A DNA stretch of 52,743 nucleotides, from contig CAZANW010000002.1 of NCBI GenBank assembly GCA_964486625.1, forward strand, positions 1-52,743, given 5' to 3'. Numbering within the stretch: position 1 is the stretch's first letter; every line of letters begins with the position of its first letter. This DNA is from an uncultured Halobacteria archaeon (lineage in GTDB: Archaea > Halobacteriota > Syntropharchaeia > JACQPP01). The position numbers and the translations under genes are program-made. The notes under the pieces were generated by a model that was not told the DNA's origin, made no database searches, and saw only the letters and a list, made by a program, of their open reading frames with translations. Below, one piece after another: positions 9,555 through 34,559 of this stretch.

Positions 9555-10757
9555 ATGGGGAGTCCAGTCCGGGGTTTGAGCCTGCGCATCATCTCCGACA
9601 GCCGGGGGGAGCCCACCATCGAAGCCGAGGTCCGAACCCCCCGGGCGGCCGGACGCGCCGCCGACCCCGCCGGGGCCTCCCGGGGCAAGCGGGAGGCCGC
9701 GGTGGTCGCCCCGCCCCTCGCCCTGAAGAGGGCCCGCGAGGCGCGCCTGGAGGCGAAACTGCGGGGCCTCTCCGCCGGCGACCAGGAGGGGGTGGACGGG
9801 CTCCTCCGCCGCCTGGACGGGACCCGGAACCTGGGCCACCTCGGGGGCAACCTGGCCATCGCCGTTTCCCTGGCGGCCGCCCGGGCCGCGGCGGCGTCGG
9901 AGGGGCTGCCCCTGTGGCGCTTCCTGGCCCCCTCGATGAAGCGGCCCCACCTCCCCATCCCCCTGGGCAACGTCATCAACGGGGGGAAGCACGCCCCCTC
10001 GGGTCCGGACATCCAGGAGTTCCTGGCGGCCCCCGTAGGCGCCCCGGACGCCTCTCGGGCGGTATTCGCCAACGCCGCGGTCCACAGGGAAGCGGGGGCG
10101 CGCCTCCGCCGGATGGGCCTGGAGTTCGGGAAGGGCGACGAGGGGGGCTGGGCGCCGTCCATCACCACTCTGGAGGCGCTTGGGGTTCTGCGGGCCTCGG
10201 CACGCAAGGTCGGGCAGCAGGCCGGCTTCGCAATCGCCCCCTCTGTGGATGTGGCCGCCTCGTCCCTGTGGGACGGGAGGGCCTACCGCTACCGGAAGGG
10301 CCGCAAGTCCCCGGAGCAGCAGGCGGAGTTCACGGCCTCCCTCGCCCGCCGCCACCGCCTCGCCTTCCTGGAGGACCCGGTCCACGAGGAGGATTTCGCG
10401 GGGCTCGCGGCCGTCACCCGGGCCGTCGGCCGCTCGACCCTGGTCTGCGGCGACGACATCTTCGTCACGTCGGCCGAGCGCATCGAGCGCGGGGCGAGGA
10501 TGGGGGCGGGGAACGCGGTGCTCATCAAGCCCAACCAGGCCGGGACCCTCACCGACACGCGGCGGGCCGTGGAGGCGGCGCGGCGCCACGGATACGAGAT
10601 TGCGGTCTCCCACCGCTCCGGCGAGACCACCGACGACGCAATCGCCCACCTCGCCGTGGCCTGGAGGGCCCGCTTCATCAAAACCGGAATCGTGGGCGGG
10701 GAGCGCATAGCGAAATTGAACGAACTCATCCGCATCCACGAAACGGCGGGGGAGTAG
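9555..10757 (+). CDS. eno: Enolase
   Basis: It has the SHRSGETTD signature, LIKPNQAGTLT, and a full-length 400-aa ORF. The archaeal rpoN-rpoK-eno-rps2 synteny is present. Confidence 0.95.
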   Translation: MGSPVRGLSLRIISDSRGEPTIEAEVRTPRAAGRAADPAGASRGKREAAVVAPPLALKRAREARLEAKLRGLSAGDQEGVDGLLRRLDGTRNLGHLGGNLAIAVSLAAARAAAASEGLPLWRFLAPSMKRPHLPIPLGNVINGGKHAPSGPDIQEFLAAPVGAPDASRAVFANAAVHREAGARLRRMGLEFGKGDEGGWAPSITTLEALGVLRASARKVGQQAGFAIAPSVDVAASSLWDGRAYRYRKGRKSPEQQAEFTASLARRHRLAFLEDPVHEEDFAGLAAVTRAVGRSTLVCGDDIFVTSAERIERGARMGAGNAVLIKPNQAGTLTDTRRAVEAARRHGYEIAVSHRSGETTDDAIAHLAVAWRARFIKTGIVGGERIAKLNELIRIHETAGE

Positions 10758-10785: not shown

Positions 10786-11508
10786 ATGAGCATGAGCGGT
10801 GTCTTTCCCGACGGCTACTCGCCCCTTGTTCCCGAGGACGACTACCTCGCGGCGGGGGTCCACATCGGGAGCCACCAGAGGTCCCACGACATGGAGCGCT
10901 TCATCCACAAGGTCAGGGAGGACGGCGTGGCCCTCCTCCAGTTGCACCAGACCGACCTCCGGCTCCGGGCCGCCGCCAAGTTCCTGGCCCGCTTCGACGC
11001 CGGGAAAATCCTGGCCGTGAGCGCGAGGCAGCACGGCGCCACCCCGGTCCAGAAGTTCGCCCAGGCCACCGGGAGCAAGGCTTCGGTCGGCCGGTTCATC
11101 CCCGGGACCCTCACCAACCCGAACCTCCCGGTCTACGACGACTGCCAGGCCCTGGTGGTCATGGACCCCGTGGCCGACATCCAGCCCCTGACCGAGGCGT
11201 TCTCGGTGGGAGTCCCCATCGTCGCTTTCTGCCACACCGCCAGCAGCCTCCAGCGCATCGACCTCGCGATTCCCGCGAACAACAAGGGGCGGAAGAGCCT
11301 CGCCCTCCTCTACTACCTCCTGGCGCGGGAGGTCCGCCGCGCCCACGGCTGGGACGAGATGACCCTCCAGCTGAAGGACTTCGAAGCCGAGCCGCCCCCG
11401 GTGGGCCTCCAGATTCCGGTTCCGCGCGCCCCCGAGGAGCGGAGGCGGACGCCGTTCCGCGGCGAGCGCGCGGGCGGCAGGCGAAGCCGGCCCTCCGACA
11501 GCGCGTAG
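10786..11508 (+). CDS. rps2: 30S ribosomal protein uS2 with basic C-terminal extension
   Basis: LAAGVHIGSHQRSHDMERFI and the conserved synteny after eno support the call. A TTTATGA-like box lies about 22 nt upstream. Confidence 0.9.
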   Translation: MSMSGVFPDGYSPLVPEDDYLAAGVHIGSHQRSHDMERFIHKVREDGVALLQLHQTDLRLRAAAKFLARFDAGKILAVSARQHGATPVQKFAQATGSKASVGRFIPGTLTNPNLPVYDDCQALVVMDPVADIQPLTEAFSVGVPIVAFCHTASSLQRIDLAIPANNKGRKSLALLYYLLAREVRRAHGWDEMTLQLKDFEAEPPPVGLQIPVPRAPEERRRTPFRGERAGGRRSRPSDSA

Positions 11509-11541
11509 CGCTTAAAGCGCCCCGACCGGTCATCTGCATTC

Positions 11542-12372
11542 ATGGCCCGAACGGGCACGGGACGCCGAAAGCCCGCGGTCGCCGGCGCGTTCTATCCCGC
11601 CGACCCGGGAGAACTCCGCCGCTCCGTCGAGGGGTGCTTCGCGGGAATCCCCCGGGACCCGCGGCCGGGGCTCCTCGGGGCGGTCGTCCCCCACGCGGGC
11701 TACATCTACTCGGGGGCGGTGGCGGCGCGGGCCTACGCGCGGGTCCCCCCCGCCGACACATTCGTCATCCTCGGGCCCAACCACCGGGGCCGCGGCTCCG
11801 GGGTCGCGGTCTCCGCCGCGCCGTGGGAGACCCCCTTCGGCGTGGCGGAGCCCGACCTCGATTTCATCGAGGCGCTGCCCCGGGCCATCGTGGACGCTGA
11901 CGAGGAGGCCCACCGGCTCGAGCACTCCCTGGAGGTCCAGGTCCCCTTCCTCCAGCACCTGTTCGGGCGGGTCCGCATCGTCGCCGTGGCCATGGCCCTC
12001 CAGGACGCGGAGACCGCCCGGGAGGTGGCCGCGGAGCTCCGCGCCGCCCGGGATGCCACCGGCCGGCGGGTCGTGGTCCTGGCCTCTTCCGACTTCACCC
12101 ACTACGAGTCCGAGGCCTCAGCCCGGGCCCGGGACGCGCCCGTTCTCGACGCGATTCTCCGGCTCGACCCCGTGGAGTTCTACCGCCGCATGGAAGAGAC
12201 CGGGGCTTCCCTCTGCGGTTTCGGGGCCGTCGGGACCCTGCTCCATTCGCTGGGCCCGGAGGGTCCCAGAAACAGAAAGGTAGAACTACTCCGTTACGCC
12301 ACATCGGGGGATGTCACCGGCGACCGGGAGGAGGTCGTGGCCTACGCGGCCGTGACCGTGGAAGCGGGATGA
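11542..12372 (+). CDS. MEMO1-family protein (AmmeMemoRadiSam system protein B)
   Basis: It has AGAFYPADPGEL, VPHAGYIYSG, ILGPNH and EHSLEVQVPFLQ motifs. Confidence 0.9.
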   Translation: MARTGTGRRKPAVAGAFYPADPGELRRSVEGCFAGIPRDPRPGLLGAVVPHAGYIYSGAVAARAYARVPPADTFVILGPNHRGRGSGVAVSAAPWETPFGVAEPDLDFIEALPRAIVDADEEAHRLEHSLEVQVPFLQHLFGRVRIVAVAMALQDAETAREVAAELRAARDATGRRVVVLASSDFTHYESEASARARDAPVLDAILRLDPVEFYRRMEETGASLCGFGAVGTLLHSLGPEGPRNRKVELLRYATSGDVTGDREEVVAYAAVTVEAG

Positions 12373-13025
12373 CCGAGGCCGTCCCATCCAAGGAGTTCGA
12401 GGCCCAGGCGCGTGTGGCAAGGGCGGAGGAACTTCAGCGCCGGGCCCTCCGGCTCCTGCTCTTCCGCCACCGGATGGAACCCGGCGCCCGCGCGTGGGAA
12501 CTCCGCCAAGCCCTGGGCAAGGATTACGGAAAGATTCTGGACCTGCTCGACCGCCGCCTCGCCGACCTCGGCCTTGCCGTCCGCTCGTATCCGGAGGAGG
12601 GCGCGGGAGACGATGAGGGGGAGGAGAAGGGAGAGGAGAGGTGGTTCGTGGCCCTGCGGGAGCCGCCCTCTTCGGCGGAGGTCCGGACCTCGGGCTGGCG
12701 GGTGGACGACATGGCCTGCCTCTGCGCGGCCGTCGCCTACATCGCCTCGCGGCGGAGCCGGGTCCCCCGGAAGGAGTTGGAGGAGGTCCTGCGCAAGAAA
12801 CTCCCGGCCCAGAGGGTGGAGTTCAACCTGGCCCGGTTCCTGAGGATGGGCTACCTGGAAGAAGTGCGGCCCGAGGCGGGACCGGAAGGAGGAGTGCCGA
12901 AGGGGGAAATCCTGCTGGACCTCGGATGGAGGGCGAAGGTGGAGGTGGATATCCGGGCCCTCATGGGGGCCATGGGGGCGTCCCTGCAGACGCCCGCGAT
13001 TTCGCGCCGGGAGGGCGGGACGTGA
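12369..13025 (+). CDS. Tandem winged-helix protein resembling the MAGE homology domain / kite (Nse3, ScpB-like) fold
   Basis: The start overlaps the MEMO1 stop (ATGA at 12369-12372). It has two WH-like halves separated by an acidic linker. By eye it aligns with MAGE motifs: LRLLLFRHRMEPGARAWELRQAL, ILDLLDRRLADLGLAV, WFVAL, ACLCAAVAYIASRRSRVPRKELEEVL, FLRMGYLEE and LDLGWRAKVE (compare WGPRA). This is similarity by recollection, not by search. Confidence 0.55.
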   Translation: MTEAVPSKEFEAQARVARAEELQRRALRLLLFRHRMEPGARAWELRQALGKDYGKILDLLDRRLADLGLAVRSYPEEGAGDDEGEEKGEERWFVALREPPSSAEVRTSGWRVDDMACLCAAVAYIASRRSRVPRKELEEVLRKKLPAQRVEFNLARFLRMGYLEEVRPEAGPEGGVPKGEILLDLGWRAKVEVDIRALMGAMGASLQTPAISRREGGT

Positions 13026-14161
13026 GCCGGGACCCCGCACCTCCGGGCAGCCGCGGCCGTGCGGCCCTGGCCGTGAAGGGGGTTTTGGTGGCCCTGGGGG
13101 TCCTCTTCGTGGTCACCATCCGGGCCGCCCCGGACGCCTATCAGCAGAACGCGAGGCCGTTCACCGAGCTCATCAGCGCCCCCGTCGCCGGTTTCATCAC
13201 GGTGGGCGCCCTGCTGCTCCTGCTCGTCACAACGCTGACGGCCATCGGCGCCCGGGACCTCGGCCTCGCAGCGCTCGTCGCCGCTATCGGCTCCCTGGTG
13301 TTCGCCGCCCTCTACGCGTTCGTGATTGTCGAGCCGGGGAGGGTCTGCAAGTCGACGCTTACCGGGGCCGTTCTGGGCGTCCCGGAGTGCATCCCCGACT
13401 ACTCCACGCAAATCCTCGCCCTCGGTTCCCAGTTCATCTCCATCTTCGGGCTCGCCATCGTCGGTCTCAGCCCCCTGGCGTTCCTTCGGCAGGCCAAGGC
13501 CCCGCCCCCCGAGCCCCTGGTGAGCGTCCAGGTCCAGGTGCCGCCCCCGACGGTGGTGGTCCAGCCGAACCAGAGGCCCCCGGCGGCTCCCGCCCCGGTG
13601 CCGCGGCCCGCCGCCTACCGCCCTCCGCCGCCCCCTCGAACGCCCCTCCGGACAGCCACTCCGCCCGTGGTCCGGGCCCCGCCCCCGCCGCCTCCCCCGC
13701 CGGAACTCCGCCCGATGAACTCGTATCTGGTCCTCGGGACCGGTCCTCAGGCAGCCTACGCCATTTTCAAAAACGCGGTCTCCAAGGGCGCCCCGGGCTT
13801 CTGCATCAGCCGGACCCACCCCGACGAGGTCCGCCGGGCCCACGGCCTGCCCGCGCCGGTCCGGGTCCACTGGCTGAGCAAGACGGGGGAAAAAGACTCC
13901 ATGAACCCCGCCAACTTGGAGCAGATGTTCGCCACCATCGGGGAGTTCCTAGGATCCCAGAAGGGTGCCGCCGTCCTCTTCGACGGCGTCGAATACCTCG
14001 CCGCGGAGCGCGAGTTCCCGCGGGTCCTCAAGTTCCTCAACAACCTCCAGGACGCCGTGGCGGTGAACAAGGCCATCCTCCTGGTCCCGGTGAATCCTGC
14101 GGCCCTCGGGGAAAAGGAGGTGGGCCTCCTCTCCCGCGACATGAAAACGGTTAAGTCCTGA
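13022..14161 (+). CDS. Membrane protein with C-terminal DUF835 domain (about 4 TM segments, poly-Pro linker)
   Basis: GTG 13022 overlaps the upstream stop (GTGA). The N-terminal hydrophobic helices are followed by a PPPPPPPPE linker. The C-terminal part YLVLGTG...GFCISRTHPDEVRR...VHWLSK...VLFDGVEYL...LKFLNNLQD matches the DUF835 pattern. Confidence 0.75.
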   Translation: MSRDPAPPGSRGRAALAVKGVLVALGVLFVVTIRAAPDAYQQNARPFTELISAPVAGFITVGALLLLLVTTLTAIGARDLGLAALVAAIGSLVFAALYAFVIVEPGRVCKSTLTGAVLGVPECIPDYSTQILALGSQFISIFGLAIVGLSPLAFLRQAKAPPPEPLVSVQVQVPPPTVVVQPNQRPPAAPAPVPRPAAYRPPPPPRTPLRTATPPVVRAPPPPPPPPELRPMNSYLVLGTGPQAAYAIFKNAVSKGAPGFCISRTHPDEVRRAHGLPAPVRVHWLSKTGEKDSMNPANLEQMFATIGEFLGSQKGAAVLFDGVEYLAAEREFPRVLKFLNNLQDAVAVNKAILLVPVNPAALGEKEVGLLSRDMKTVKS

Positions 14162-14178
14162 GGCCCCCATCCGCGTCC

Positions 14179-14889
14179 GTGAACGGCAAGGTCCCCACCG
14201 GGAGCCCCAAACTGGACGAGATTCTGGAGGGCGGAATCCCGGCGGGGCATCTGGTCATCCTCAGCGGCGCGGCGGGGACCATGAAATCCACCCTCGCCTA
14301 CTCCATCCTCCACCACAACGCCCTGAAGGGGACGCCGGGCCTCTACGTCACCGCCGAGCAGAGCCCGGCCAGCGTCGGCGCCCAGATGGAGAAACTGGGC
14401 TTGAACAACGCCGAGGCCCGGAAGCGCCTCTTCTTCTACGACGCGGCCGAGGCGCGCCACAAGGCCTCCGAGGTGGGGGGAAGCACGAAGCGGACCTGGG
14501 AGAGCCTGTTCCGCGGCGTGATTGAGTTCGAGCAGCGGGCCCACGGGGTCCAGGTCCTGGTCTTCGACTCCCTGAACGTTTACGAGGTCCTCACCGAGGC
14601 CGCGAACCCGCGCCTGGACCTCTTCGAGATGTTCCACTTCCTGCACTCGAAGAAGTTCACGACCCTCGCCATCGCCGAGGTCCCGCCGGACTCCTCCACC
14701 TACGCGCCCAACCACGAGGACTTCATGGCGGACGGCATCCTCCACCTGCGGCTCGCGGCGGTGGACGACGTCCACAGGCAACTGCGCATCTGCGTTCCCA
14801 AGATGCGGGGAGTCAAGCACCCCCACGACTTCTTCGCGCTGACGTTCGGGAACGGGCAGTTCAACCTGCTCCCCCTCGTTTCCGAATAA
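14179..14889 (+). CDS. KaiC-like / RecA-superfamily ATPase
   Basis: It has LDEILEGGIPAGHLVILSGAAGTMKST (Walker A), VLVFDSL (Walker B) and a KMRG motif. The start is GTG. It is the last gene of the 11542-14889 operon. Confidence 0.85.
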   Translation: MNGKVPTGSPKLDEILEGGIPAGHLVILSGAAGTMKSTLAYSILHHNALKGTPGLYVTAEQSPASVGAQMEKLGLNNAEARKRLFFYDAAEARHKASEVGGSTKRTWESLFRGVIEFEQRAHGVQVLVFDSLNVYEVLTEAANPRLDLFEMFHFLHSKKFTTLAIAEVPPDSSTYAPNHEDFMADGILHLRLAAVDDVHRQLRICVPKMRGVKHPHDFFALTFGNGQFNLLPLVSE

Positions 14890-15666
14890 TTACCGAATCC
14901 ACTGGCCGCCCGCGACCATCCAGATTTCCCCGGTCACGTAGGCCGCCTCGTCGCTGGCGAGGAACGCGGCCGTGTTCGCGATGTCCTCCGGCTTTCCCGT
15001 GCGGCCCATGGGCGACATCTTCTCCATCTCCTCCAGCATCGGCTTGGAATACTGCCGCGCCAGGAACGGGTTCATGGTGACGCCGGGCGCGATGGCGTTC
15101 ACCGTCACCCCGCAGGGCGCCATCTCAAGGGCGAGGGCCCGCGTGAAGGCCATGATGCCCGCCTTGGTAGAGAGGTAGGGGACCTCGCCGAACGGGGAGC
15201 CGATCCACCCGCCGAAACTGCTGATGCTGATGACCCGGCCCCGCCTCCGCTCCACCATGCCCGGGAGGAAGGCGCGGGTGCAGAGGTAGAGCCCTTTCAG
15301 GTTCACCCCGAGGACGGTGTTCCAGATGTCGTCGGTCGCTTTCGTGATGGGAGCCAGGACGTTCCGGGCCGCGTTGTTCACCAAGATGTCCACCCGGCCG
15401 AACTCCTTGAGGGCGGCATCGGCGAGGCCACGGACGCTCTCGCGGCTCGATACGTCGCAGACGACGCCCACGGCCTTCCGGCCCGTGGCCTTGGCAATCT
15501 CGGCGGCGACCTCGGTGGTCCGGCTCGTCCCGTCCTCGCGCCTGTGGGCGTCGGCGACGACCACATCCGCTCCCTCGGCGGCGAACTTGCGGGCGACTGC
15601 TTGGCCGATTCCGGCTCCCGCAGAGGCGGTGACGACCGCGACCTTGCCTTCGAGACGGCCGGGCAT
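14890..15666 (-). CDS. Short-chain dehydrogenase/reductase (FabG-like)
   Basis: It has VVTASAGAGIGQAV, NNAA and YLSTKAG motifs. ATG 15666 (MPGRLEGK) is preferred over GTG 15693. Its stop abuts the stop of the convergent KaiC-like gene. Confidence 0.85.
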   Translation of the reverse strand: MPGRLEGKVAVVTASAGAGIGQAVARKFAAEGADVVVADAHRREDGTSRTTEVAAEIAKATGRKAVGVVCDVSSRESVRGLADAALKEFGRVDILVNNAARNVLAPITKATDDIWNTVLGVNLKGLYLCTRAFLPGMVERRRGRVISISSFGGWIGSPFGEVPYLSTKAGIMAFTRALALEMAPCGVTVNAIAPGVTMNPFLARQYSKPMLEEMEKMSPMGRTGKPEDIANTAAFLASDEAAYVTGEIWMVAGGQWIR

Positions 15667-15694
15667 GCTAAACGGCCTCCGTTTTCGAAGCACT

Positions 15695-15845
15695 AAGTCC
15701 TAAATCCGAAACTCTAAACAAATTCAAATGGCCAAAATCCAAAATCCAAAACACAATGTTTTGAATTTTGAGTTTTGAATTTTGAGTTTGTTTAGGATTT
15801 AGGATTTCGAATTTAGGATTTGGAGCGGCCATAAGTCCTAATCCG
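15695..15845. repeat. AT-rich long palindromic intergenic element, copy 2 (with flanking direct repeat)
   Basis: The arms CCTAAATCCGAAACTCTAAACAAATTCAAATGGCCAAAATCCAAAATCCAAAAC and GTTTTGAATTTTGAGTTTTGAATTTTGAGTTTGTTTAGGATTTAGGATTTCG pair. AAGTCCTAAATCCG (15695-15708) is repeated as AAGTCCTAATCCG (15833-15845). It shares GTTTTGAATTTTGA and TTTGTTTAGG blocks with copy 1. Confidence 0.8.
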
Positions 15846-16587
15846 TCATGTAATACCCGCCGTTCACGTGGATGGCGGTCCCGCGGATGTAGCCCCCTTC
15901 ATCCGAGGCCAGCAGCAGCAGCGCCGGGGTGAGGTCGCCGGCGCGGCAGAACCGCTGCATGTGGATTCCCGGCAGCGCCCGCTTGAACTCCTCGTGGGTC
16001 AGCCCCTGGAACCGCTCCGGCATGACGCCCGGGACGATTGCGTTCACCGAGATGTCGAACCCGGTGAGTTCGCGGGCGAGGGCGTGGACGAGGCCGAGGA
16101 GGGCCCCCTTCGCGGTCGCGTAGGCCACCTCGCCCCGCGCCGAGCCCGCCCGGGCCTCCAGGGCCGAAAAGAGGATGATGCGCCCTTTTTTCCGCGCTCT
16201 CATCGGGGGCACCACGGCCCGGCACCAGTAGAAGGCGGAGCGGAGGTTCGCGTTGACCATCTCGTCCCAGAGCAACTCGTCGGTCTCCAGGAAGGGGGCG
16301 CGCGTGTGATTCTCGCTCCCCACCACGAGGATGTCCACCGAGCCGAGGCCGTCCACCGCGCGCTTCACGGCCTCCTCCACGCTCGCCGGGTCGTTCTCGT
16401 CGGCGGGGAGGTTCAGCACCTTGCGCCCCGTGTCGCGCTCCAGCCGGTCCACCACGGTCGAGAGGTCGATGTTGTCGGAGAGGGCGAGGTCGGCCCCCGC
16501 GCGGGCCAGGGCCTCGGCGGCGGTCTGGCCGAGGGTGGTGGTGGCGCCGGTCACCAGAGCGTGCTTGCCTTCGAGCGGGAGGGCCAT
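15838..16587 (-). CDS. Short-chain dehydrogenase/reductase
   Basis: It has LVTGATTTLGQ and YATAKGAL motifs. ATG 16587 (MALPLEGKHALVTG) is preferred. Confidence 0.85.
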   Translation of the reverse strand: MALPLEGKHALVTGATTTLGQTAAEALARAGADLALSDNIDLSTVVDRLERDTGRKVLNLPADENDPASVEEAVKRAVDGLGSVDILVVGSENHTRAPFLETDELLWDEMVNANLRSAFYWCRAVVPPMRARKKGRIILFSALEARAGSARGEVAYATAKGALLGLVHALARELTGFDISVNAIVPGVMPERFQGLTHEEFKRALPGIHMQRFCRAGDLTPALLLLASDEGGYIRGTAIHVNGGYYMTD

Positions 16588-16653
16588 GTTGGAAGGTCGG
16601 GGAATCCCTGAAAAACCCACCGTTTCGGCCCGGAAACCCGCCGCCGGACACGC

Positions 16654-18772: not shown

Positions 18773-20335
18773 TCAAGAGCGGCGGCGCCGGGCGGCGAGG
18801 CCCGCCAGAAGCAGGGCCGCGGCGGCGAAAGCGGCCTCGAAGCCGGGGGGCTCGGGCGTCTTGGTGGGCTCCGCCGGGGCGGGGGTGGGGCTCACCAGTT
18901 TGACCCCCCAGGTGGCCTCCTTGTCCCGCGCCTGCTGGGTGCTGTTCGGGGGAATCGCCTCCTGGGCCGTGGAGACGGAGGCTTGGCCGGGCGCCAGGGT
19001 GATGTTGAGGCGGGTGAGGTTGTTGGCGGTGAGGTTCAGGGTAGCGGAGTAGGGGCTGAGACCGGGGAGGGCAACGCGCAACGTGTGGTTCCCCACCGCC
19101 AAGCTGAGGGAGAGGGGCGCCTGGCCGAGGGAGGACCCGTCCACCTGCACGTCCGCCCCGGCGGGGACGGAGTTCACATCGAGGGCGGCGGGGTAGGCGA
19201 GGCGGCTCAGGTTCAGGGTGACATTGGCTTCGCCCCCGAATGGGACGACGACGGTGACCGGGACCTCGCCGATGGAGGTGTTGTTGACCGCCACCCGGTG
19301 GGGCCCGGGGAGAATCTCCAGCTGGAGGGGGGTCGTCCCCCGGGCCTCGCCGTCCACGAGGACGGTGCCGTTGGGGGTGGAGTTGACTTTCAGGAAACTG
19401 GGGACGACGGCGCCGAGGTCGTAGAGGACGAGCCTGAGTTGCTTCAGGGCCATGCCCATGTAGCGCCCGTCGGGAGAGAGGGAAACTGCGGCCGCGACGT
19501 CTCCGGGGGACGGGGCCTTGAGGGCATTCCCGAAGAAGTCCCGGAGGGTCAGGTCAGTCCCGGCGGAAGCGGCGATGAGGTTCGGGGAGACCTGGACCAT
19601 TGCCGGAAAACTGGCAGTCGAAACGCGGAGGCGGAACTGCTTCCCGCCGGACCGGTCGTGGAGGTAGGTCCCGTCGCTGGCCCCGATGACCACCTCCGGG
19701 CCCGACACGGCGATGCTCACCGGGCGGCGCACGTCGGTCCGGAGGAAGAGGTCCCCGTAGGAGATGGCCCGGGACTTGGCCCCGGCCGGCGTCCAGAGGG
19801 TGGCCGAGTCGGGGCCGAGCGTCGCCACGGAGCCGTCGCTGGCGATGGCGCCCATGGCCTGCTGCAGGCCGGTGTCCTTGCTCCAGACCTGGATGCCGTC
19901 CTTGTCCCGCACCTCCACGTAGCGCTCCTGGGAAACCACCATGCGGCTGCCGTCGGGGGTGATTCCAACCGAGCGGATGGAGCGGGGGGAGGCCGAGGTC
20001 CAGATGACCCCGCCCGAGGAGTCGTAGAGGTAGAGTTTATCCAGGGTCGCCGCGAGGACCCAGGGCCCCCGGGACACGTCGGGACCTGTGACGGCGACGC
20101 CGACCAGGGAGGGGAGGGGCTTCTGCCAGAGGGGCTTCAACTTGGAGTCGAAGAGGGTTACCCCCTGGCTTGTGGCGAGGGCTGTGAACCGGCCCTCCTG
20201 GCTGACGACCACGGCGACGGGGTCCCCCTCGAACAGGCGGTCGCCCGCGAAACGGGGCTCCCGGGACTGGGCGAATGCGGCCGCGGGCAGGAGGGCCAGG
20301 ACCGCGAGCAGGAGGGCGATGGAGCGGGGAGCCAT
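18773..20335 (-). CDS. Secreted beta-propeller (WD40/PQQ-like) protein with two PEGA-like domains and PGF-CTERM archaeal sorting signal
   Basis: The signal peptide MAPRSIALLLAVLALLPAAAFA starts at ATG 20335. Propeller-like blades repeat, followed by PEGA-like modules (VNSTPNGTVLVDGEARGTTPL, VNSVPAGADVQVDGSSLGQAPL). A Thr/Pro linker leads to PGFEAAFAAAALLLAGLAARRRRS at the C-terminus. Confidence 0.8.
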   Translation of the reverse strand: MAPRSIALLLAVLALLPAAAFAQSREPRFAGDRLFEGDPVAVVVSQEGRFTALATSQGVTLFDSKLKPLWQKPLPSLVGVAVTGPDVSRGPWVLAATLDKLYLYDSSGGVIWTSASPRSIRSVGITPDGSRMVVSQERYVEVRDKDGIQVWSKDTGLQQAMGAIASDGSVATLGPDSATLWTPAGAKSRAISYGDLFLRTDVRRPVSIAVSGPEVVIGASDGTYLHDRSGGKQFRLRVSTASFPAMVQVSPNLIAASAGTDLTLRDFFGNALKAPSPGDVAAAVSLSPDGRYMGMALKQLRLVLYDLGAVVPSFLKVNSTPNGTVLVDGEARGTTPLQLEILPGPHRVAVNNTSIGEVPVTVVVPFGGEANVTLNLSRLAYPAALDVNSVPAGADVQVDGSSLGQAPLSLSLAVGNHTLRVALPGLSPYSATLNLTANNLTRLNITLAPGQASVSTAQEAIPPNSTQQARDKEATWGVKLVSPTPAPAEPTKTPEPPGFEAAFAAAALLLAGLAARRRRS

Positions 20336-20369
20336 GAGCCTATTCCGGAGGCGGTTCTTTAAACCATCG

Positions 20370-28394: not shown

Positions 28395-31300
28395 ATGTAT
28401 ATCAAGGAAATCGAATTCAGGAACTTCAAGACCTTCGTCAAGGCCAAGGTCCCCCTCCTGCCGGGCTTCACCGCCGTCACCGGCCCCAACGGCGCGGGGA
28501 AGTCCAACATCATCGACGGCGTCAACTTCGCCCTCGGCCTCGCCTCCACCCGCAAACTGCGGGCCGAGGACCTCTCGGGCTTCATCCACAAATCCAAGGG
28601 GGGCCGGAGCGGGGACTCCGCGGAGGTCACCCTCGTCTTCGACAACTCCGACGGGGCCCTCGGGCCCGAGCCCGAGATTCGCGTCACCCGCCGGGTCAAA
28701 CTCGACTCGAAGGAGCAGCCCTCCAGCGTCTTCGCCTGGAACGACGACCGCCTCACCCTGGGCGAGTTGCGGGAGAGGTTGCTGAAGGTCAACATCGCCC
28801 CCGAGGGGCACAACGTCGTCCTTCAGGGGGAGGTCAACGCCGTCGCCAAGGGGCTCTCCGACCTGGAGCGCCGCAAGATGATTGACGAGATTGCGGGTGT
28901 GGCCGAGTTCGACGAGCGGCGCGAGAAGGCGAAGGAGGAACTGGTCGTGGTGAAGGAGCGGCTCAAGGAGGTGGACGCCCGCATCTCGGTGTGGGAGGAG
29001 CAGATGGGCCTCCTCCAGGTGGAGAAGGAGAAGGCAGCGGCCTACAAGGGCCTCGCGGACGAGAAAACTCGGACCGAGGCCCTCCTGCGCGCGGCCCAGC
29101 GCTCGCACCTCCAGGCGGAACTGGCGCGGAACCGGGAGGCGGCGCTGAAGAGGGCGAAGGAGGGGGAGAAACTGCAGGCCGAGGGGGAGAAATTGCGGAA
29201 GGAGAGGGCCGCTCTTCAGGAGGAGTTGGACCGGCTGGAGAAGGAGTTGCGGGACTCCGAGGATGCGACCCTGCGGAAACTCCGGGAGTCGGTCGAGGAG
29301 GCCCTCCAGGAGACGAGCGCGAAGAAAACCGCCATCGGGGAGATGGAGAAGCGCGTCGCGGAGGCGGAGGGCGAGGCGCACCGGCGGTCGGTCCTCATCT
29401 CGATGAAGAAGGAGGAGGCGGCCCGGGCCGCGGCCGACCTGGAGGCGGCGGAGGAGGTTCGGAAGGAGAAGAGGAGGGACGTGGACGCCCTCCGGCGGAA
29501 ACTCGGCGTGGGCGGGGCGGAGGGCGCGGAGGCGGTGGACAAGCCCGCCCGCCTCGATGCCCTGCGGCGGGACATCCGCAACCTGGAGGAGGAGCGGCTC
29601 CGGGTCGAGCGGGAACTGGACGACCGGGTCCGCTCCCTCGCCCGGAAGACCGGCGAGCACAGCGCGCTCGCGAAGGAGGTCGAGGAACTCCAGCAGAAAC
29701 TGGCCTCATTGGAGGAGCAGCAGCGGGCCCGGGTCCAGGCCTCCGAGGCGGCCCGGGCCGAGAGGAACAAGCACGTGAAGGAAATCGCCCTCCTCTCGGA
29801 GCGGCTGGACAAGCTGGAGGCGGCGTCCGCCGCGGCCGCCCAGCGCGCCCACGAGGCCCGGCGGGAGATGGAGCGCTCGGCGATTGGCTCGGGCCGCAGC
29901 CCCGCGGTGGCCGAGGTCCTCGACGCGGCGCGGAAACAGGAACTGGGCGGCGTCCTGGGGACCGTCGGCGACCTCATCCAGGTGGACGCGAAGCACGCCT
30001 TGGCCCTCGAAGCCGCGGCCGGGGGGCGCCTGGAGTGGGTCGTGATGGAGGGGGTCGAGGACGTCGCGCAGGCGCGGAGCCACCTGAAGAAGAAAGGCGT
30101 CCCGGGCCGCGTCACCCTCCTACCCCTCGACAAACTGGAGCCGCCCCGCAGGTCCCCCGGGCCCCGCGGGGAGGGGGTCGTGGGGGCCGCCATGGACCTC
30201 GTCTCCATCCGGCCGGGCCTCGAAGCGGCTCTGTGGGCCGCCGTGGGGGACACGGTCTTCGTGCAGGATTTCGACAGCGCCAAGCCCTACATCGGCCGCT
30301 GCCGCCTCGCCTCCCTGGAAGGGGACCTCTTCGAGCGTGCCGGGGCCATCACCGTCGGGGTGCTGCCGCGGCGCTTCCTCGGCAAGGCCCGGGAGGCCCA
30401 GGAGGCCCTTGCGGAAGCGGAGGAGCGGTTGCGAAATGCCGAGGAGGAGCAGGCCGCGGTCGAGCAGGCGTTGAAGGGACTGAAGGAGCGGGCCGATGCG
30501 GCGGGGCTGGAGACCGCCCGGGCCGAGAAGGAGATGGAGGGGCTCCAGGCGGCCCTGGCCGCCGTCCGGGCGGAACTGGAGCGCAAGGCCGCCGCCCTGC
30601 AGCCCCTGGCGGAGGAGGCGGGGACGGGGATTCTGGACGACCTCCGGAAGCGTAAGGAGAGCCTCGAAGCGCAGGAAGGGAAAGCGCGGAAGGAGGCCCG
30701 GGCACTGGAAGAGGAGTTGGGCGAGGTCGCGGAGGCTCTGGGGGAAACGGCCAAACTGCAGGAGGTCCTCCGGGGGCGGGAGGAGGCGCTGGCGGCCGCG
30801 GTCCTGGAGGCGGAGCGGCTCGCCCTGAAGGCGGACGCGGCCAAAAGTGCGTTCCAGGAGGCGGAGGCGGAACTGGAGCGGCTGGAGAAAGAGCGGGAGG
30901 ACCTCCAGGCGAGAATCGAGAAAGCGAAGAAGGAAATCCGCGACCTCGAGGAGCGCTTGAAGGAGTTGCGGGCGAAGGAGGACGAGGTCGGAGTCTCCAC
31001 TAAGAAACTGCGCAACTCCCGCGAGGAGGCGATGGCTGCCCTGGCGAAACTGACCGAGGAGATTCACGCCCGGGAGAAGGATGCGGAACTGCTGAGGCGC
31101 GACGTCGAGCAGTTGGAGACCGCGGCGGGGGCCCTGGCGGCGGAACTGGAGCGCATCCGCTCCCTGGGGCCGGAAGCGGACGAGGCGAACCTGCCGCCGG
31201 TCGAGGAACTCCAGGCCCGCTTGCGGGTGGCGGACGAGCGCCTCCAGGCGATGGGTCCGGTGAACCAGCGCGCCCTGGAAGACTACGCGGAACTGGAGGC

Positions 31301-31877
31301 CCGGAGGAATGAACTCCAGGAACAGCGGGACCAGTTGGGCAAGGAGCGCAAGGAGTTGCTGGAGCGCATGGACCGGTGCGAGGAGATGAAGCGGGAGGCG
31401 TTCATGGACGCCTTCAAGGCGGTGGACCGCTCCTTCCGGGAGATTTTCGCTGAACTCGCGGACGGGAAGGGCTCCCTCGCCCTCGAGAACGACGAGGACC
31501 CCTTCGCGGGCGGCATGAAAATCAGGGCCCAGCCCCGGGGCAAGACGATGCTCGACCTCCGCTCCCGCTCCGGCGGCGAGCAGACCCTCATCGCCCTCGC
31601 CTTCCTCCTCGCCCTCCAGTCCTACAGGCCCGCCCCCTTCTACGCCTTCGACGAGGTGGACATGCACCTCGACGGCGTCAACATCGAGCGGGTGGCGAAG
31701 CGCATCCGGAGGTTCGCGGACCGCGCCCAGTTCATCGTGGTCTCGTTGCGGGAGCCGATGGTGGAAGCGGCCGACCGCACCATCGGGGTGGCCATGCAGG
31801 AGACCGATGTATCGACTGTTACGGGAATCGTGTTGGGTAAAGGCGGCGAAGTGGAGACGGAGGTGAAGGTGGCGTGA
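28395..31877 (+). CDS. smc: Chromosome segregation protein SMC
   Basis: It has Walker A GPNGAGKSN, long coiled coils, a hinge, the signature SGGEQTL and Walker B FYAFDEVDMHLD. It is 1160 aa. Confidence 0.95.
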   Translation: MYIKEIEFRNFKTFVKAKVPLLPGFTAVTGPNGAGKSNIIDGVNFALGLASTRKLRAEDLSGFIHKSKGGRSGDSAEVTLVFDNSDGALGPEPEIRVTRRVKLDSKEQPSSVFAWNDDRLTLGELRERLLKVNIAPEGHNVVLQGEVNAVAKGLSDLERRKMIDEIAGVAEFDERREKAKEELVVVKERLKEVDARISVWEEQMGLLQVEKEKAAAYKGLADEKTRTEALLRAAQRSHLQAELARNREAALKRAKEGEKLQAEGEKLRKERAALQEELDRLEKELRDSEDATLRKLRESVEEALQETSAKKTAIGEMEKRVAEAEGEAHRRSVLISMKKEEAARAAADLEAAEEVRKEKRRDVDALRRKLGVGGAEGAEAVDKPARLDALRRDIRNLEEERLRVERELDDRVRSLARKTGEHSALAKEVEELQQKLASLEEQQRARVQASEAARAERNKHVKEIALLSERLDKLEAASAAAAQRAHEARREMERSAIGSGRSPAVAEVLDAARKQELGGVLGTVGDLIQVDAKHALALEAAAGGRLEWVVMEGVEDVAQARSHLKKKGVPGRVTLLPLDKLEPPRRSPGPRGEGVVGAAMDLVSIRPGLEAALWAAVGDTVFVQDFDSAKPYIGRCRLASLEGDLFERAGAITVGVLPRRFLGKAREAQEALAEAEERLRNAEEEQAAVEQALKGLKERADAAGLETARAEKEMEGLQAALAAVRAELERKAAALQPLAEEAGTGILDDLRKRKESLEAQEGKARKEARALEEELGEVAEALGETAKLQEVLRGREEALAAAVLEAERLALKADAAKSAFQEAEAELERLEKEREDLQARIEKAKKEIRDLEERLKELRAKEDEVGVSTKKLRNSREEAMAALAKLTEEIHAREKDAELLRRDVEQLETAAGALAAELERIRSLGPEADEANLPPVEELQARLRVADERLQAMGPVNQRALEDYAELEARRNELQEQRDQLGKERKELLERMDRCEEMKREAFMDAFKAVDRSFREIFAELADGKGSLALENDEDPFAGGMKIRAQPRGKTMLDLRSRSGGEQTLIALAFLLALQSYRPAPFYAFDEVDMHLDGVNIERVAKRIRRFADRAQFIVVSLREPMVEAADRTIGVAMQETDVSTVTGIVLGKGGEVETEVKVA

Positions 31878-31961
31878 GTCTGGGGAAGATAGACCGGGGC
31901 TATCGCCAGTCATATCACTTCTTTGATTCTTGGACGCCCGCGGCGAGGAACGAGCCGCGGG

Positions 31962-32042
31962 CATGCAGGAGACCGACATCTCCACGGTGACGGGAATCGA
32001 CCTCAAGGCGGCCGCGGAGGAGACCGAAGTGAAGGTTGCTTA
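31962..32042 (+). other. Ghost duplicate of the smc 3' end (MQETDISTVTGIDLKAAAEETEVKVA*)
   Basis: It is homologous to the real SMC C-terminus MQETDVSTVTGIVLGKGGEVETEVKVA* (31794-31877). The 15-nt repeat CATGCAGGAGACCGA occurs at 31793-31807 and 31962-31976. Confidence 0.75.
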
Positions 32043-32066
32043 ATCCGCAACGCGGAAATCTCCAAA

Positions 32067-33258: not shown

Positions 33259-34002
33259 GTGGCCCTTGAGATTGCCCGGCCTGACATCGGCGCCCTCCTC
33301 GCGTCGGACATGGAGACCGAGGACCTCATCGAGCGCCTCGCGGGACTGGCCACCGCGGGCGAAATCAACCCCTGGGACGTGGACATCGTCTCGGTCTACG
33401 ACCGGTTCATGGAGGTCATGGCGGAGAAGAAGCGCCTCGACCTCCGCGTCTCGGGCCGCTCCATCTACTACGCGGCGGTCCTCCTCCGCCTCAAGGCCGA
33501 GGCCCTGAACTTCTACGAGGAGCCCGAGCCGCCGCCCCCGGAGTGGAACGGCTACGCCCACCTCGTGGAGCCCCCCGACCTGCCCCGGCTCCGGTTCATC
33601 CGCCGCGCCCCGCGGCCCGTGGTCTTGGACGAATTGGCCGAGGCCCTGCGCGATGCGGAGACCCTCTACCGCCGCCGCCTGGAGCGGCAGGCCTCCCGCC
33701 CGGTGGACCCCGGGGAGGTCCTCAAGTTCCACGAGGAAGACATCGAGAACCGCATCCGCATCGTGTCGGAGCTCCTGCGGAAACTTTTCGGCCCGCACAA
33801 GACCGTCTGCCTCGACGACCTTCTGGACACCCTCGGCCACGAGCGGCGGACGGTGGTCTTCACCTTCATGGCCCTCCTCTTCCTCGCGACCCGCGGGATG
33901 GTGGCCGCGGCGGACGGGGAGAACCCGCTGCCCGGCGCCGCGGTCTCCATCACCCTCACCCAGGAGGAGCTCTTCGGGACGCTCCTGGTGAACCCGAGAT
34001 GA
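33259..34002 (+). CDS. scpA: Segregation and condensation protein A (kleisin)
   Basis: It has GEINPWDVDIVSVYDRFMEVM and a C-terminal WH domain. It is followed by scpB with an ATGA overlap. Confidence 0.85.
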   Translation: MALEIARPDIGALLASDMETEDLIERLAGLATAGEINPWDVDIVSVYDRFMEVMAEKKRLDLRVSGRSIYYAAVLLRLKAEALNFYEEPEPPPPEWNGYAHLVEPPDLPRLRFIRRAPRPVVLDELAEALRDAETLYRRRLERQASRPVDPGEVLKFHEEDIENRIRIVSELLRKLFGPHKTVCLDDLLDTLGHERRTVVFTFMALLFLATRGMVAAADGENPLPGAAVSITLTQEELFGTLLVNPR

Positions 34003-34559
34003 CCCAGGCCCCCGGCCCCATCGAGATCATCGAAGCCGCCCTCTTCGCCGCGGGCAAGACGGTCTCCCGGGACGAACTGGCCAAGATGGCGGGGATCGAG
34101 CCGGGCGAGGTGGACCGCCTCGTGAAGGAACTTCGCAAGGCCTATGAGGGCCGGGCGATGGAGATTGCCGACCTCGAGGGGCGCTACATCATGCAGGTCC
34201 GGCCCGCCCTCGCCCCGCGGGTCCGGGCGCTGGCGCCGATGGAGATGGACCCCTCGATTCTCCGGACCCTGAGCATCGTCGCCTACAACCAGCCCGTGAC
34301 CCAGGCCGACGTGGTCCGGGTCCGGGGGGCCAAGACCTACGACCACGTCCGCTTCTTGGAGGAGCGGAAACTCGTCAAGAGCCGGCCCTACGGCCACACC
34401 AAGATTCTCGAGACCACGGAGGAGTTCGATGCATACTTCATGATTGAAAAACTGGAACGGCCCGAGGGGGCCACGCTGACCCTGCCCGCCCCCGGCAGCC
34501 CGGAATCGGCAGCGGTCGAAGTCGCGGTCGAGACCGCCGGGGCGTCAAAAGGTTCTTAA
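33999..34559 (+). CDS. scpB: Segregation and condensation protein B
   Basis: IEIIEAALFAAGKTVSRDELAKM and LRTLSIVAYNQPVTQADVVRVRG are tandem WH motifs. ATG 33999 overlaps the scpA stop. Confidence 0.85.
   Translation: MTQAPGPIEIIEAALFAAGKTVSRDELAKMAGIEPGEVDRLVKELRKAYEGRAMEIADLEGRYIMQVRPALAPRVRALAPMEMDPSILRTLSIVAYNQPVTQADVVRVRGAKTYDHVRFLEERKLVKSRPYGHTKILETTEEFDAYFMIEKLERPEGATLTLPAPGSPESAAVEVAVETAGASKGS

What the first reader, a model, noticed from the sequence alone, without database searches (positions are those of the whole stretch)
11542..14889. Operon coupling MEMO1, a MAGE/kite-like double winged-helix protein, a DUF835 membrane protein and a KaiC-like ATPase
The four genes are translationally coupled (ATGA at 12369-12372, GTGA at 13022-13025, 17-nt gap before 14179). 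The 218-aa second protein aligns by eye, motif for motif, with the eukaryotic MAGE homology domain (Nse3-type kite fold). The matching blocks are LRLLLFRHRMEPGARAWELRQAL, LDRRLADLGLAV, WFVAL, ACLCAAVAYIASRRSRVPRKELEEVL, FLRMGYLEE and LGWRAKVE. Kite proteins normally partner with SMC/kleisin, and a canonical smc-scpAB set is present elsewhere in this window. Here the partner genes are instead a membrane DUF835 protein and a KaiC-like ATPase, which have been proposed as archaeal signalling hubs. This would be a kite/MAGE-like module recruited to a membrane ATPase signalling cassette, a link I do not know to be described.
Basis: partly seen in the sequence, partly recalled or inferred. Interest (0 to 1): 0.7.

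Follow-up and report, generated by a model that had tools for sequence, protein, structure and literature searches.

The report
Stray archaeal Nse1/3-like kite gene
The 218-residue protein really is an archaeal relative of the eukaryotic Nse1/Nse3/MAGE "kite" subunits of SMC5/6, a family already described, but here its gene has lost its usual SMC and kleisin neighbours, and its position next to a membrane DUF835/KaiC pair looks like a recent, dispensable rearrangement.

Summary
Four same-strand genes sit at the stated coordinates: MEMO1 (11542-12372), a 218-aa protein "X" (12369-13025), a membrane DUF835 protein (13022-14161) and a single-domain KaiC-like ATPase (14179-14889). The ATGA and GTGA overlaps are real.

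X alone hits no Pfam model. A 35-member family profile hits Nse3/MAGE and Nse1 chains in PDB. A confident AlphaFold model (pLDDT 88) gives Nse3 and Nse1 as the best Foldseek matches (TM about 0.6), well ahead of ScpB.

In all 9 informative loci carrying distant relatives, the X homologue directly follows an Nse4-like kleisin gene. Where more upstream sequence is visible, a short SMC5/6-like ATPase usually precedes that. This matches the archaeal "Nse1/3-like kite" of SMC5/6-related operons described by van Hooff et al. (bioRxiv 2024.01.07.573240).

The proposed recruitment to DUF835/KaiC is weakly supported. The pair follows X in only 4-5 of 8 close relatives. It is cleanly missing in one whose flanks are otherwise identical, and X stays under purifying selection without it.

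The window also holds canonical smc, scpA and scpB. No Nse4-like kleisin or short SMC lies in the window (52.7 kb) or in the 20.6 kb read around X in the related MAG.

Verdict: new member of a known kind, in an unusual orphan context. Modest interest.

The parts
11542..12372 (+). MEMO1-family protein (AmmeMemoRadiSam system protein B type), 276 aa. It is the last gene of the conserved eno-rpS2-MEMO run, and its stop overlaps the X start (ATGA).
   Evidence: Pfam Memo 7.2e-67. NCBIfam NF001987 305 bits, above the 295 cutoff. MEMO-X adjacency is seen in 7 of 8 close relatives.
12369..13025 (+). X: archaeal Nse1/3-like kite protein, 218 aa. It has an N-terminal helix followed by two winged-helix domains.
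   Evidence: The family profile hits Nse3/MAGE and NSE1 chains in PDB at 2.9e-4 to 1.4e-2. Pfam SMC_Nse1 matches 8 of 35 members, best 4.7e-6. The AF2 model has pLDDT 88.3 with H-H-H-E-E twice. Foldseek top matches are 7dg2_C (Nse3), 5hvq_C (NSE1), 7qcd_E and 7dg2_A, TM 0.5-0.6. dN/dS is 0.17-0.28.
13022..14161 (+). Membrane protein, 379 aa: about 4 hydrophobic segments, a proline-rich linker, and a C-terminal DUF835 (inactivated KaiC-like) domain. It is part of a two-gene indel.
   Evidence: PF05763 7.6e-30 on residues 243-374. Hydrophobic segments. DUF835 is listed as iKaiC in PMC5847659. The gene is absent after X in L002, L006 and L014.
14179..14889 (+). Single-domain KaiC-like (RecA-superfamily) ATPase, 236 aa, with Walker A written GAAGTMKS. 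It is the second gene of the indel and abuts the stop of a convergent SDR gene.
   Evidence: PF06745 1.6e-34. 89% identical in L001, with the same Walker A.
28395..31877 (+). Canonical (condensin-type) SMC, 1160 aa, with a hinge domain.
   Evidence: SMC_N 3e-60 and SMC_hinge 1.4e-24. Best PDB hits are prokaryotic Smc, SMC2 and SMC1A, with no SMC5/6 among those at E<=1e-20.
33259..34002 (+). ScpA kleisin, 247 aa.
   Evidence: PF02616 1.7e-10. Only a weak, low-probability match to the Nse4-like kleisin profile A3 (hhalign probability 7.7%).
33999..34559 (+). ScpB, the canonical kite, 186 aa. Its ATG overlaps the scpA stop.
   Evidence: PF04079 2.6e-37. Start located. No similarity to the X family profile (hhalign E 0.21).

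Best explanation
**What it is.** X (12369-13025) belongs to the archaeal Nse1/3-like branch of the kite superfamily. Kites are tandem winged-helix proteins that sit on the middle of a kleisin and, with it, close and regulate an SMC ATPase ring on DNA.

**Ancestral arrangement.** In other archaea its gene is the third of a tight operon: a short SMC5/6-like ATPase, an Nse4-like kleisin, then the kite.

**Arrangement here.** In the high-GC lineage of this window the kite gene has been separated from those partners. It sits behind eno-rpS2-MEMO1 and is probably co-transcribed with MEMO1.

**Most likely mechanism (inferred, not shown).** X still works as a kite. It would act as a homodimer that binds DNA and a kleisin encoded outside the 52.7-kb window, either an unlinked Nse4-like kleisin with a short SMC, or less likely ScpA.

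**The DUF835/KaiC pair.** The DUF835 membrane protein and KaiC-like ATPase downstream are a self-contained pair: an inactivated KaiC-like sensor/anchor plus an active KaiC-like ATPase, as proposed for archaeal signalling. The pair was inserted between X and the SDR genes in part of this lineage and shares a transcript with X by accident of position.
For: **Family identity**
- The A2 profile (35 members) against PDB sequences gives: MAGE domain protein 7dg2_C 2.9e-4, MAGE-G1 8e-4, NSE3 4.5e-3, NSE1 0.01-0.014. No ScpB chain is listed at E<=10.
- Pfam SMC_Nse1 matches 8 of 35 members (best 4.7e-6) and MAGE 3 of 35. SMC_ScpB is not among the 25 most-matched Pfam families listed.
- The AF2 model has pLDDT 88.3 and pTM 0.78, with two H-H-H-E-E units.
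- Foldseek full-length matches to Nse3 and Nse1 have TM 0.51-0.61 at rmsd 4.4-4.7 Å. ScpB scores TM 0.28-0.39.

**Ancestral operon**
- In L003, L004, L005, L008, L009, L010, L016, L017 and L018 the X homologue (35-42% identity where measured by tblastn) directly follows a 246-303 aa protein.
- A profile of that protein hits yeast Nse4 (3.6e-3), human EID3 (7e-3) and the ScpA N-terminal domain (8.6e-3). Pfam Nse4_C scores 8e-4.
- Upstream of the kleisin in L008, L009, L016 and L018 (and partly visible in L003) lies a 573-652 aa SMC_N protein.
- For the L008 protein the best PDB hits are SMC5 (7e-33) and SMC6 (4e-31).
- This matches the SMC5/6-related operons of van Hooff et al..

**Orphan state here**
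- tblastn finds no Nse4-like kleisin or short SMC in the window or in 20.6 kb of the related MAG contig L006.
- Synteny of L006 with the window ends exactly at the X stop.

**X is a working gene**
- dN/dS is 0.17-0.28 among four lineage members.
- All family-invariant residues (E44, Y162, R188, E192) are kept.

**The DUF835/KaiC pair is dispensable**
- The NJ tree implies at least two gain or loss events.
Against: - No cognate kleisin or SMC5/6-like gene is seen. Whether one exists elsewhere in the genome could not be tested.
- The X-DUF835 junction is a 4-nt overlap kept in at least four related contigs, so co-expression is real in those genomes.
- In van Hooff's Supplementary Table 3, 4 of 5 Hadarchaeota genomes carry an Nse1/3-related kite with no Nse4-related kleisin recorded. 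This could mean genuine loss of the partner, although the authors warn that SMC and kleisin counts are under-estimates.
- X alone does not reach any Pfam threshold.
Confidence: 0.6

Rival explanations
1. X has been recruited as a subunit or adaptor of a membrane DUF835/KaiC-like ATPase signalling module, so the overlap-coupled genes form a functional unit.
For: - The GTGA overlap of the X stop with the DUF835 start has a Shine-Dalgarno-like GGGAGGG upstream.
- The same X-DUF835 order is found in L001, L012 and L013, probably in L011, and with KaiC in L001.
- The NJ tree places DUF835-bearing contigs in both subclades, so the link has persisted for a dS of about 0.8.
Against: - The pair is absent after X in L002, L006 and L014/L015 of the same lineage. 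L002 keeps the window's downstream SDR genes, so it is a clean indel.
- X shows equal purifying selection without the pair.
- No distant X relative is linked to DUF835 or KaiC. All 9 informative loci are linked to a kleisin.
- DUF835 is classed as an inactivated KaiC-like domain in PMC5847659. From my own recollection of Makarova et al. 2017 (not readable here), such domains are often encoded beside active KaiC-like ATPases. The pair would then need no third partner.
Confidence: 0.1
2. X has left SMC biology altogether. It acts as a stand-alone winged-helix DNA-binding protein or adaptor, as many mammalian MAGE proteins work outside SMC5/6. It may be tied to MEMO1, with which it is almost always overlap-coupled in this lineage.
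For: - MEMO-X adjacency occurs in 7 of 8 lineage contexts. ATGA/ATGAG coupling is read directly in the window and L011 and implied by gene coordinates in L001, L006, L013 and L014.
- No kleisin or short SMC lies nearby.
- Hadarchaeota genomes carry an Nse1/3-related kite with no Nse4-related kleisin recorded.
- Single winged-helix regulators (MarR, SmtB) are the next-best structural matches.
Against: - All residues invariant across the kleisin-linked family are retained in X, and the whole tandem fold is kept.
- The lack of a linked kleisin is only local evidence.
- L002 has X without MEMO directly upstream.
- eno-rpS2-MEMO is a housekeeping gene run in which co-location carries little functional meaning.
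Confidence: 0.17
3. X serves as a second kite of the canonical Smc-ScpA complex encoded 15 kb downstream, alternating with or supplementing ScpB.
For: - Canonical smc, scpA and scpB are in the same window.
- Kites of all three archetypes bind the central part of kleisins. This is established knowledge, cited.
- Archaeal ScpB has been reported not to bind ScpA in some species (abstract of PMC7055376).
Against: - scpB is overlap-coupled to scpA here, which suggests the standard partnership.
- ScpA shows only a weak match to the Nse4-like kleisin profile (probability 7.7%).
- The X family profile shows no similarity to ScpB.
Confidence: 0.1
4. X is a decaying remnant of a lost SMC5/6-like operon and has no function.
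For: Its operon partners are missing locally.
Against: - The ORF is intact in 8 related contigs.
- dN/dS is 0.17-0.28, similar to the neighbouring genes.
- Conserved family residues are kept.
Confidence: 0.03

Closest known systems
Archaeal Nse1/3-like kites of SMC5/6-related operons (van Hooff, Raas, Tromer & Eme, bioRxiv 10.1101/2024.01.07.573240)
   Same: - Same fold and sequence family. X's relatives lie in SMC5/6-like, Nse4-like kleisin, kite operons of Thermoproteota (Thermofilaceae L008, Bathyarchaeota L009), exactly as that paper describes.
- The organism also has a ScpB-like kite. This gives the 'two kites' pattern the paper reports.
   Different: - Here the kite gene is detached from its SMC and kleisin. 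It sits after eno-rpS2-MEMO1 and is followed, in part of the lineage, by DUF835 and KaiC.
- The record most like the window is labelled 'Halobacteria archaeon'. That places it among the few non-TACK, non-Asgard carriers.
- The paper's table shows similar kite-only entries for Hadarchaeota but does not discuss them.
Eukaryotic Nse3/MAGE and Nse1 (SMC5/6 kite subunits; Pfam PF01454 and PF07574)
   Same: - Tandem winged-helix architecture.
- Conserved blocks align motif for motif.
- These are the best structural matches over about 190-210 aligned positions.
   Different: - Only about 13% identity.
- X alone passes no Pfam threshold.
- X has no RING domain (present in Nse1). As a single-copy gene it presumably forms a homodimer rather than an Nse1-Nse3 heterodimer.
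ScpB (PF04079), the kite of bacterial and archaeal Smc-ScpAB
   Same: Same superfamily fold and same expected role on a kleisin.
   Different: - A true ScpB is encoded separately at 33999-34559.
- X shows no profile similarity to it.
- X superposes worse on ScpB structures, TM 0.28-0.39.
DUF835 (iKaiC) plus KaiC-like ATPase pairs proposed as archaeal signalling hubs (Makarova, Galperin & Koonin 2017, cited in PMC5847659)
   Same: Genes 3 and 4 are such a pair: a membrane-anchored DUF835 domain followed by a single-domain KaiC-like ATPase.
   Different: The pair lies next to a kite gene. This is restricted to one sub-lineage and is not found with any distant kite relative.

Membership tests
Kite superfamily, Nse1/3-like archetype | Two consecutive winged-helix domains in one roughly 200-aa chain | tested here: met
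   The AF2 model (pLDDT 88.3, pTM 0.78) has H42-49/H53-65/E69-75/E90-96 and H112-127/H134-142/H147-160/E163-166/E182-185.
Kite superfamily, Nse1/3-like archetype | Sequence-profile similarity to Nse1/Nse3/MAGE rather than to ScpB or MukE | tested here: met
   The family profile hits Nse3/MAGE-G1/NSE3/NSE1 chains at 2.9e-4 to 1.4e-2 and no ScpB chain. SMC_Nse1 matches 8 of 35 members, best 4.7e-6. hhalign against the window's ScpB gives E 0.21.
Kite superfamily, Nse1/3-like archetype | Structural superposition on solved Nse1/Nse3 | tested here: met
   Foldseek: 7dg2_C TM 0.59/0.61 at rmsd 4.6 Å over 210 columns; 7dg2_A 0.57; 5hvq_C 0.51.
Kite superfamily, Nse1/3-like archetype | Gene linked to a kleisin gene and an SMC gene | tested here: not met
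   Met for the family: 9 of 9 informative loci with distant relatives have an Nse4-like kleisin directly upstream. A short SMC5/6-like gene lies further upstream in L003, L008, L009, L016 and L018. Not met for the window gene or its 7 close relatives.
Kite superfamily, Nse1/3-like archetype | Physical binding to the central region of a kleisin, and dimerisation | not testable with these tools
MAGE homology domain (Pfam PF01454) | Score above the Pfam gathering threshold | tested here: not met
   X has no Pfam hit at E<=1. Only 3 of 35 family members give weak MAGE hits, best 4.6e-3. The relationship is at superfamily level, not membership of the Pfam family.
ScpB (PF04079) | Match to the ScpB model | tested here: not met
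   No hit for X. SMC_ScpB is not among the 25 Pfam families most often matched by the 35 members. The real ScpB is at 33999-34559.
MEMO1 / AmmeMemoRadiSam system protein B | Score above the curated cutoff of the family model | tested here: met
   NF001987 305.4 bits against a cutoff of 295. PF01875 225.9 bits against a cutoff of 27.
DUF835 (iKaiC) membrane protein | C-terminal DUF835 domain above threshold, with an N-terminal membrane region | tested here: met
   PF05763 103.9 bits against a cutoff of 33.1 on residues 243-374. About four hydrophobic 19-residue windows lie in residues 12-156.
KaiC-like ATPase (PF06745) | [quoted passage not shown] | tested here: inconclusive
   PF06745 119.8 bits against a cutoff of 26.6. 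Walker B (LVFDS) is present. Walker A reads GAAGTMKS, with Met where Gly is usual, and this is conserved in L001. Activity cannot be judged from sequence.

The most novel reading that the evidence does not exclude
X, cut loose from any SMC-kleisin partner, has been re-used as an adaptor outside chromosome biology. This would parallel the way mammalian MAGE proteins left SMC5/6 to become adaptors of E3 ligases. In part of this lineage X would work with the membrane iKaiC/KaiC-like ATPase pair it is overlap-coupled to, for example by tethering DNA or a client protein to a membrane signalling ATPase.
Probability: 0.08. Interest if true: 0.75.

Novelty: new member of a known kind. Interest (0 to 1): 0.35.

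Why it matters
- It gives independent confirmation, from raw sequence, that Nse1/Nse3/MAGE-type kites exist in archaea. The confirmation rests on a profile, a confident model and gene context.
- It shows a lineage outside TACK and Asgard in which such a kite survives under purifying selection, apart from its SMC5/6-like and Nse4-like genes and alongside a full Smc-ScpAB set.
- If the partners prove to be absent from the genome, this would be a prokaryotic case of a kite working without its own SMC complex. That bears on how MAGE-type proteins can leave SMC5/6.
- As it stands, the case is mostly a caution. Overlap-coupled neighbours in one genome (X-DUF835-KaiC) need not form a functional module.

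Tried and rejected
- **Single-sequence searches of X.** Pfam, NCBIfam and the A1 profile of 7 close relatives against PDB gave nothing useful. Only the 35-member profile worked.
- **First AF2 model.** Built on 7 close sequences, it was poor (pLDDT 62). Its Foldseek TM scores of about 0.3 were not used as evidence.
- **Spurious top hit.** The best hit, a designed helical repeat protein (7udk), is a repeated short low-information match and was disregarded. The same applies to the CTPR protein.
- **The search for related loci with the diverse alignment A2** failed for lack of a conserved stretch. A1 was used instead.
- **Search for the lineage's own kleisin.** The A3 profile returned 2887 hits, but the 120 listed were all close relatives of the Bathyarchaeia query. 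It therefore could not show whether the window's lineage has an Nse4-like kleisin.
- **tblastn of kleisin and short-SMC queries** against the window and L006 found only the canonical SMC.
- **The listing of cluster members** gave almost no taxon names.
- **Rfam, tRNA and promoter/terminator scans** of the region added nothing. The promoter scan uses a bacterial sigma-70 model and does not apply to archaea.
- **Makarova et al. 2017** (PMC5717392) is not held in the library. It is cited only through PMC5847659 and PMC6393860.
- **Zinc-hook ASRP/ClsN identity** was considered for the short SMC partners. It was rejected because there are no cysteines in the middle of the L008 protein (sequence; ASRP features).

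Full report
**1. What is in the sequence**

On the + strand of a 70% G+C archaeal window lie the following genes:
- enolase (9555-10757)
- ribosomal protein S2 (10786-11508)
- a MEMO1-family gene (11542-12372)
- a 218-codon gene, here called X (12369-13025)
- a 379-codon gene (13022-14161)
- a 236-codon gene (14179-14889)

Two convergent short-chain dehydrogenase genes follow (14890-15693 and 15838-16620).

Pfam and NCBIfam confirm Memo (7e-67; NF001987 above its cutoff). They also confirm DUF835 on residues 243-374 of the third protein (8e-30) and a single KaiC domain in the fourth (2e-34). The third protein has about four hydrophobic segments, then a proline-rich linker, then the DUF835 domain. 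X alone matches nothing at E<=1.

**2. X is an Nse1/Nse3/MAGE-type kite**

A word-indexed search found only seven close relatives, at least 75% identical. An exhaustive HMMER search of 1.84 billion cluster representatives found 88 family members, typically 165-205 aa.

*Sequence evidence.* A profile of 35 full-length members (A2) hits these PDB chains: the MAGE-domain (Nse3) chain 7dg2_C at 2.9e-4, MAGE-G1 at 8e-4, human NSE3 at 4.5e-3 and NSE1 at 0.01-0.014. No ScpB chain appears at E<=10. Scanning each member against Pfam gives SMC_Nse1 for 8 of 35 (best 4.7e-6) and MAGE for 3 of 35. SMC_ScpB is not among the 25 most-matched families listed.

*Structure evidence.* With the 35-sequence alignment, AlphaFold2 gives a confident model (pLDDT 88.3, pTM 0.78). 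It has a long N-terminal helix followed by two helix-helix-helix-strand-strand winged-helix units. Foldseek against PDB ranks these first:
- Nse3 (7dg2_C): TM 0.59/0.61, rmsd 4.6 Å over 210 columns
- NSE1 (5hvq_C)
- a chain of the yeast Smc5/6 holo-complex (7qcd_E)
- 7dg2_A

ScpB follows at TM 0.28-0.39, and single winged-helix regulators come after that. An earlier, poor model (pLDDT 62) gave the same names with meaningless TM scores and is not relied on.

**3. Gene context of distant relatives settles the family**

Nine loci carrying relatives of X show what lies upstream. Those measured by tblastn are 35-42% identical to X. They include a Thermofilaceae MAG (L008), a Bathyarchaeota MAG (L009) and metagenome contigs L003, L004, L005, L010, L016, L017 and L018.

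In all nine, the gene directly upstream, usually overlapping, encodes a 246-303 aa protein of one family. A profile of that family hits yeast Nse4 (3.6e-3) and the human Nse4 paralogue EID3 (7e-3) through its C-terminal winged helix. It hits a ScpA N-terminal domain (8.6e-3) through its N-terminus. Pfam Nse4_C scores 8e-4. This protein is therefore a kleisin of the Nse4 type.

Upstream of it in L008, L009, L016 and L018 (and partly visible in L003) lies an SMC_N ATPase of only 573-652 aa. For the L008 protein, the best solved relatives are SMC5 (7e-33) and SMC6 (4e-31), ahead of prokaryotic Smc.

This three-gene operon is the "SMC5/6-related complex" with an "Nse1/3-like kite" that van Hooff et al. 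describe for TACK and Asgard archaea, with "a few euryarchaeal species" as further carriers. X is a member of that known family.

**4. What is different here**

The window and its close relatives lack the kleisin and the short SMC next to X. tblastn with five to six kleisins and two short SMCs finds only the canonical SMC in the window's 52.7 kb. It finds nothing in the 20.6 kb of the related MAG contig L006, which is titled "Halobacteria archaeon".

The window does carry a complete condensin-type set:
- SMC (28395-31877), with a hinge and best hits to prokaryotic Smc, SMC2 and SMC1A
- ScpA (33259-34002)
- ScpB (33999-34559), overlapping the scpA stop
- a radical-SAM gene between smc and scpA

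The X family profile shows no similarity to this ScpB. ScpA shows only a low-probability match to the Nse4-like profile. So this organism has two kites of different archetypes, as the preprint reports for many archaea, but the Nse1/3-like one is an orphan locally.

[quoted passage not shown] They list no Nse4-related kleisin, and no adjacency between the kite and an SMC5/6-related SMC. The authors warn that SMC and kleisin counts are under-estimates.

**5. The link to DUF835 and KaiC**

Eight contexts from the X lineage could be compared.

| Context | Upstream of X | Downstream of X |
|---|---|---|
| window | MEMO | DUF835, KaiC |
| L001 | MEMO | DUF835, KaiC |
| L012 | MEMO | DUF835 (contig ends) |
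| L013 | MEMO | DUF835 (contig ends) |
| L011 | rpS2, MEMO | 74 nt starting a similar N-terminus (contig ends) |
| L014/L015 | MEMO | about 220 nt with no called gene, then the end of an opposite-strand gene |
| L006 | eno, rpS2, MEMO | HIT (opposite strand), DJ-1/PfpI, ABCE1 and others |
| L002 | 85 nt with no MEMO match (contig end) | a 90-codon opposite-strand ORF, then the window's two SDR genes |

DNA alignment shows that L002 matches the window up to X and again from 14891 onward. The DUF835+KaiC block (13026-14889) is therefore a clean indel.

A neighbour-joining tree of X places L002 basal. DUF835-bearing contigs fall in both remaining subclades, and L014 and L006 (without the pair) are sisters. 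That implies one gain and one loss, or two losses.

dN/dS of X is 0.17-0.28 in all pairs, with or without the pair. This is similar to MEMO (0.27), DUF835 (0.30) and KaiC (0.14).

DUF835 is classed as an inactivated KaiC-like domain (PMC5847659). KaiC-like ATPases have been proposed as archaeal signalling hubs (Makarova et al. 2017, cited there; the paper itself could not be read). From my own knowledge, DUF835-type proteins and KaiC-like ATPases are commonly encoded as pairs.

The simplest reading is that a self-sufficient two-gene cassette landed between X and the SDR genes. It is co-transcribed with X in some genomes without being functionally tied to it.

**6. How it most likely works**

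*Shown:* fold, family, purifying selection, the ancestral operon in relatives, the local absence of partners, and the presence/absence polymorphism of the DUF835/KaiC pair.

*Inferred:* X still acts as a kite. A homodimer would bind DNA and the middle of a kleisin, modulating an SMC ATPase. The kleisin would be encoded elsewhere in the genome, or less likely would be ScpA.

My confidence is about 0.9 that X is an Nse1/3-like kite family member. It is about 0.6 for the full statement, which includes an SMC-related role and an incidental DUF835/KaiC neighbourhood.

*Rivals and rough weights:*
- a non-SMC role, possibly with MEMO1: 0.17
- a second kite for Smc-ScpA: 0.10
- a decaying remnant: 0.03

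**7. Novelty and score**

The family, however, is already described in the preprint. The proposed new functional link fails the conservation test beyond a shallow sub-lineage.

What remains of interest is the orphan state of an Nse1/3-like kite in a genome with a full Smc-ScpAB set. I rate this as a new member of a known kind, with interest 0.35.

Noticed in passing
L008 7572-9293; L009 7198-9156; L016 5241-7133; L018 5371-7242: The SMC partners in the kite operons of relatives are only 573-652 aa, about half the length of canonical SMC or eukaryotic SMC5/6. The two scanned here (L008, L009) have no SMC_hinge Pfam hit. The best solved relatives of the L008 protein are SMC5 and SMC6. The middle of the L008 protein has no cysteines, so it is not a zinc-hook ASRP/ClsN-type protein. 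The main text of the preprint does not use the word 'shorter', so it does not seem to comment on this length.
   Followed up: partly
L008 9968-11514: In the Thermofilaceae MAG the kite gene is followed at once by mevalonate kinase. From my own recollection, not checked here, that gene follows rpS2-MEMO in many archaea. This hints that the SMC5/6-like operon and the rpS2-MEMO-mvk neighbourhood were once adjacent, which could explain why X now sits behind MEMO1.
   Followed up: no
window 14179-14889 (residues 30-37): The Walker A motif of the KaiC-like ATPase reads GAAGTMKS, with Met in place of the usual Gly before Lys. It is identical in the L001 orthologue. It is unclear whether the protein still hydrolyses ATP.
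   Followed up: partly
window 11512-11517: A TTAAAG sequence lies 28 nt upstream of the MEMO1 ATG, in the 33-nt gap after rpS2. The spacing fits an archaeal TATA box driving a leaderless MEMO1-X(-DUF835-KaiC) transcript.
   Followed up: no
window 31923-33146: A radical-SAM gene (407 aa) is inserted between smc and scpA. scpB (33999-34559) overlaps the scpA stop by ATGA. A simple GC3-based gene call missed scpB.
   Followed up: partly
L006 16925-20635: The related MAG contig carries an ORF of more than 1237 aa, running off the fetched stretch, whose C-terminal part matches the C2c1/Cas12b RuvC-like domain (2.6e-13).
   Followed up: no
window 2-5518 and 18773-20572 (-): A giant ORF of at least 1839 aa with GC3 of 0.95 runs in from the window start and was not examined. 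A PEGA-domain protein with a PGF-CTERM sorting signal (an archaeosortase substrate) fits a euryarchaeal host.
   Followed up: no
window 13480-13730 (DUF835 protein residues about 155-235): An unusually long proline-rich linker (PPPEP...PPPPPPPPELRP) joins the membrane part to the DUF835 domain.
   Followed up: no
L002 1-85: In this relative, the 85 nt before X give no MEMO match and contain repeated CTCGCTCGCG-like motifs, and the X N-terminus differs. This could be a real rearrangement or a contig-end assembly artefact.
   Followed up: no
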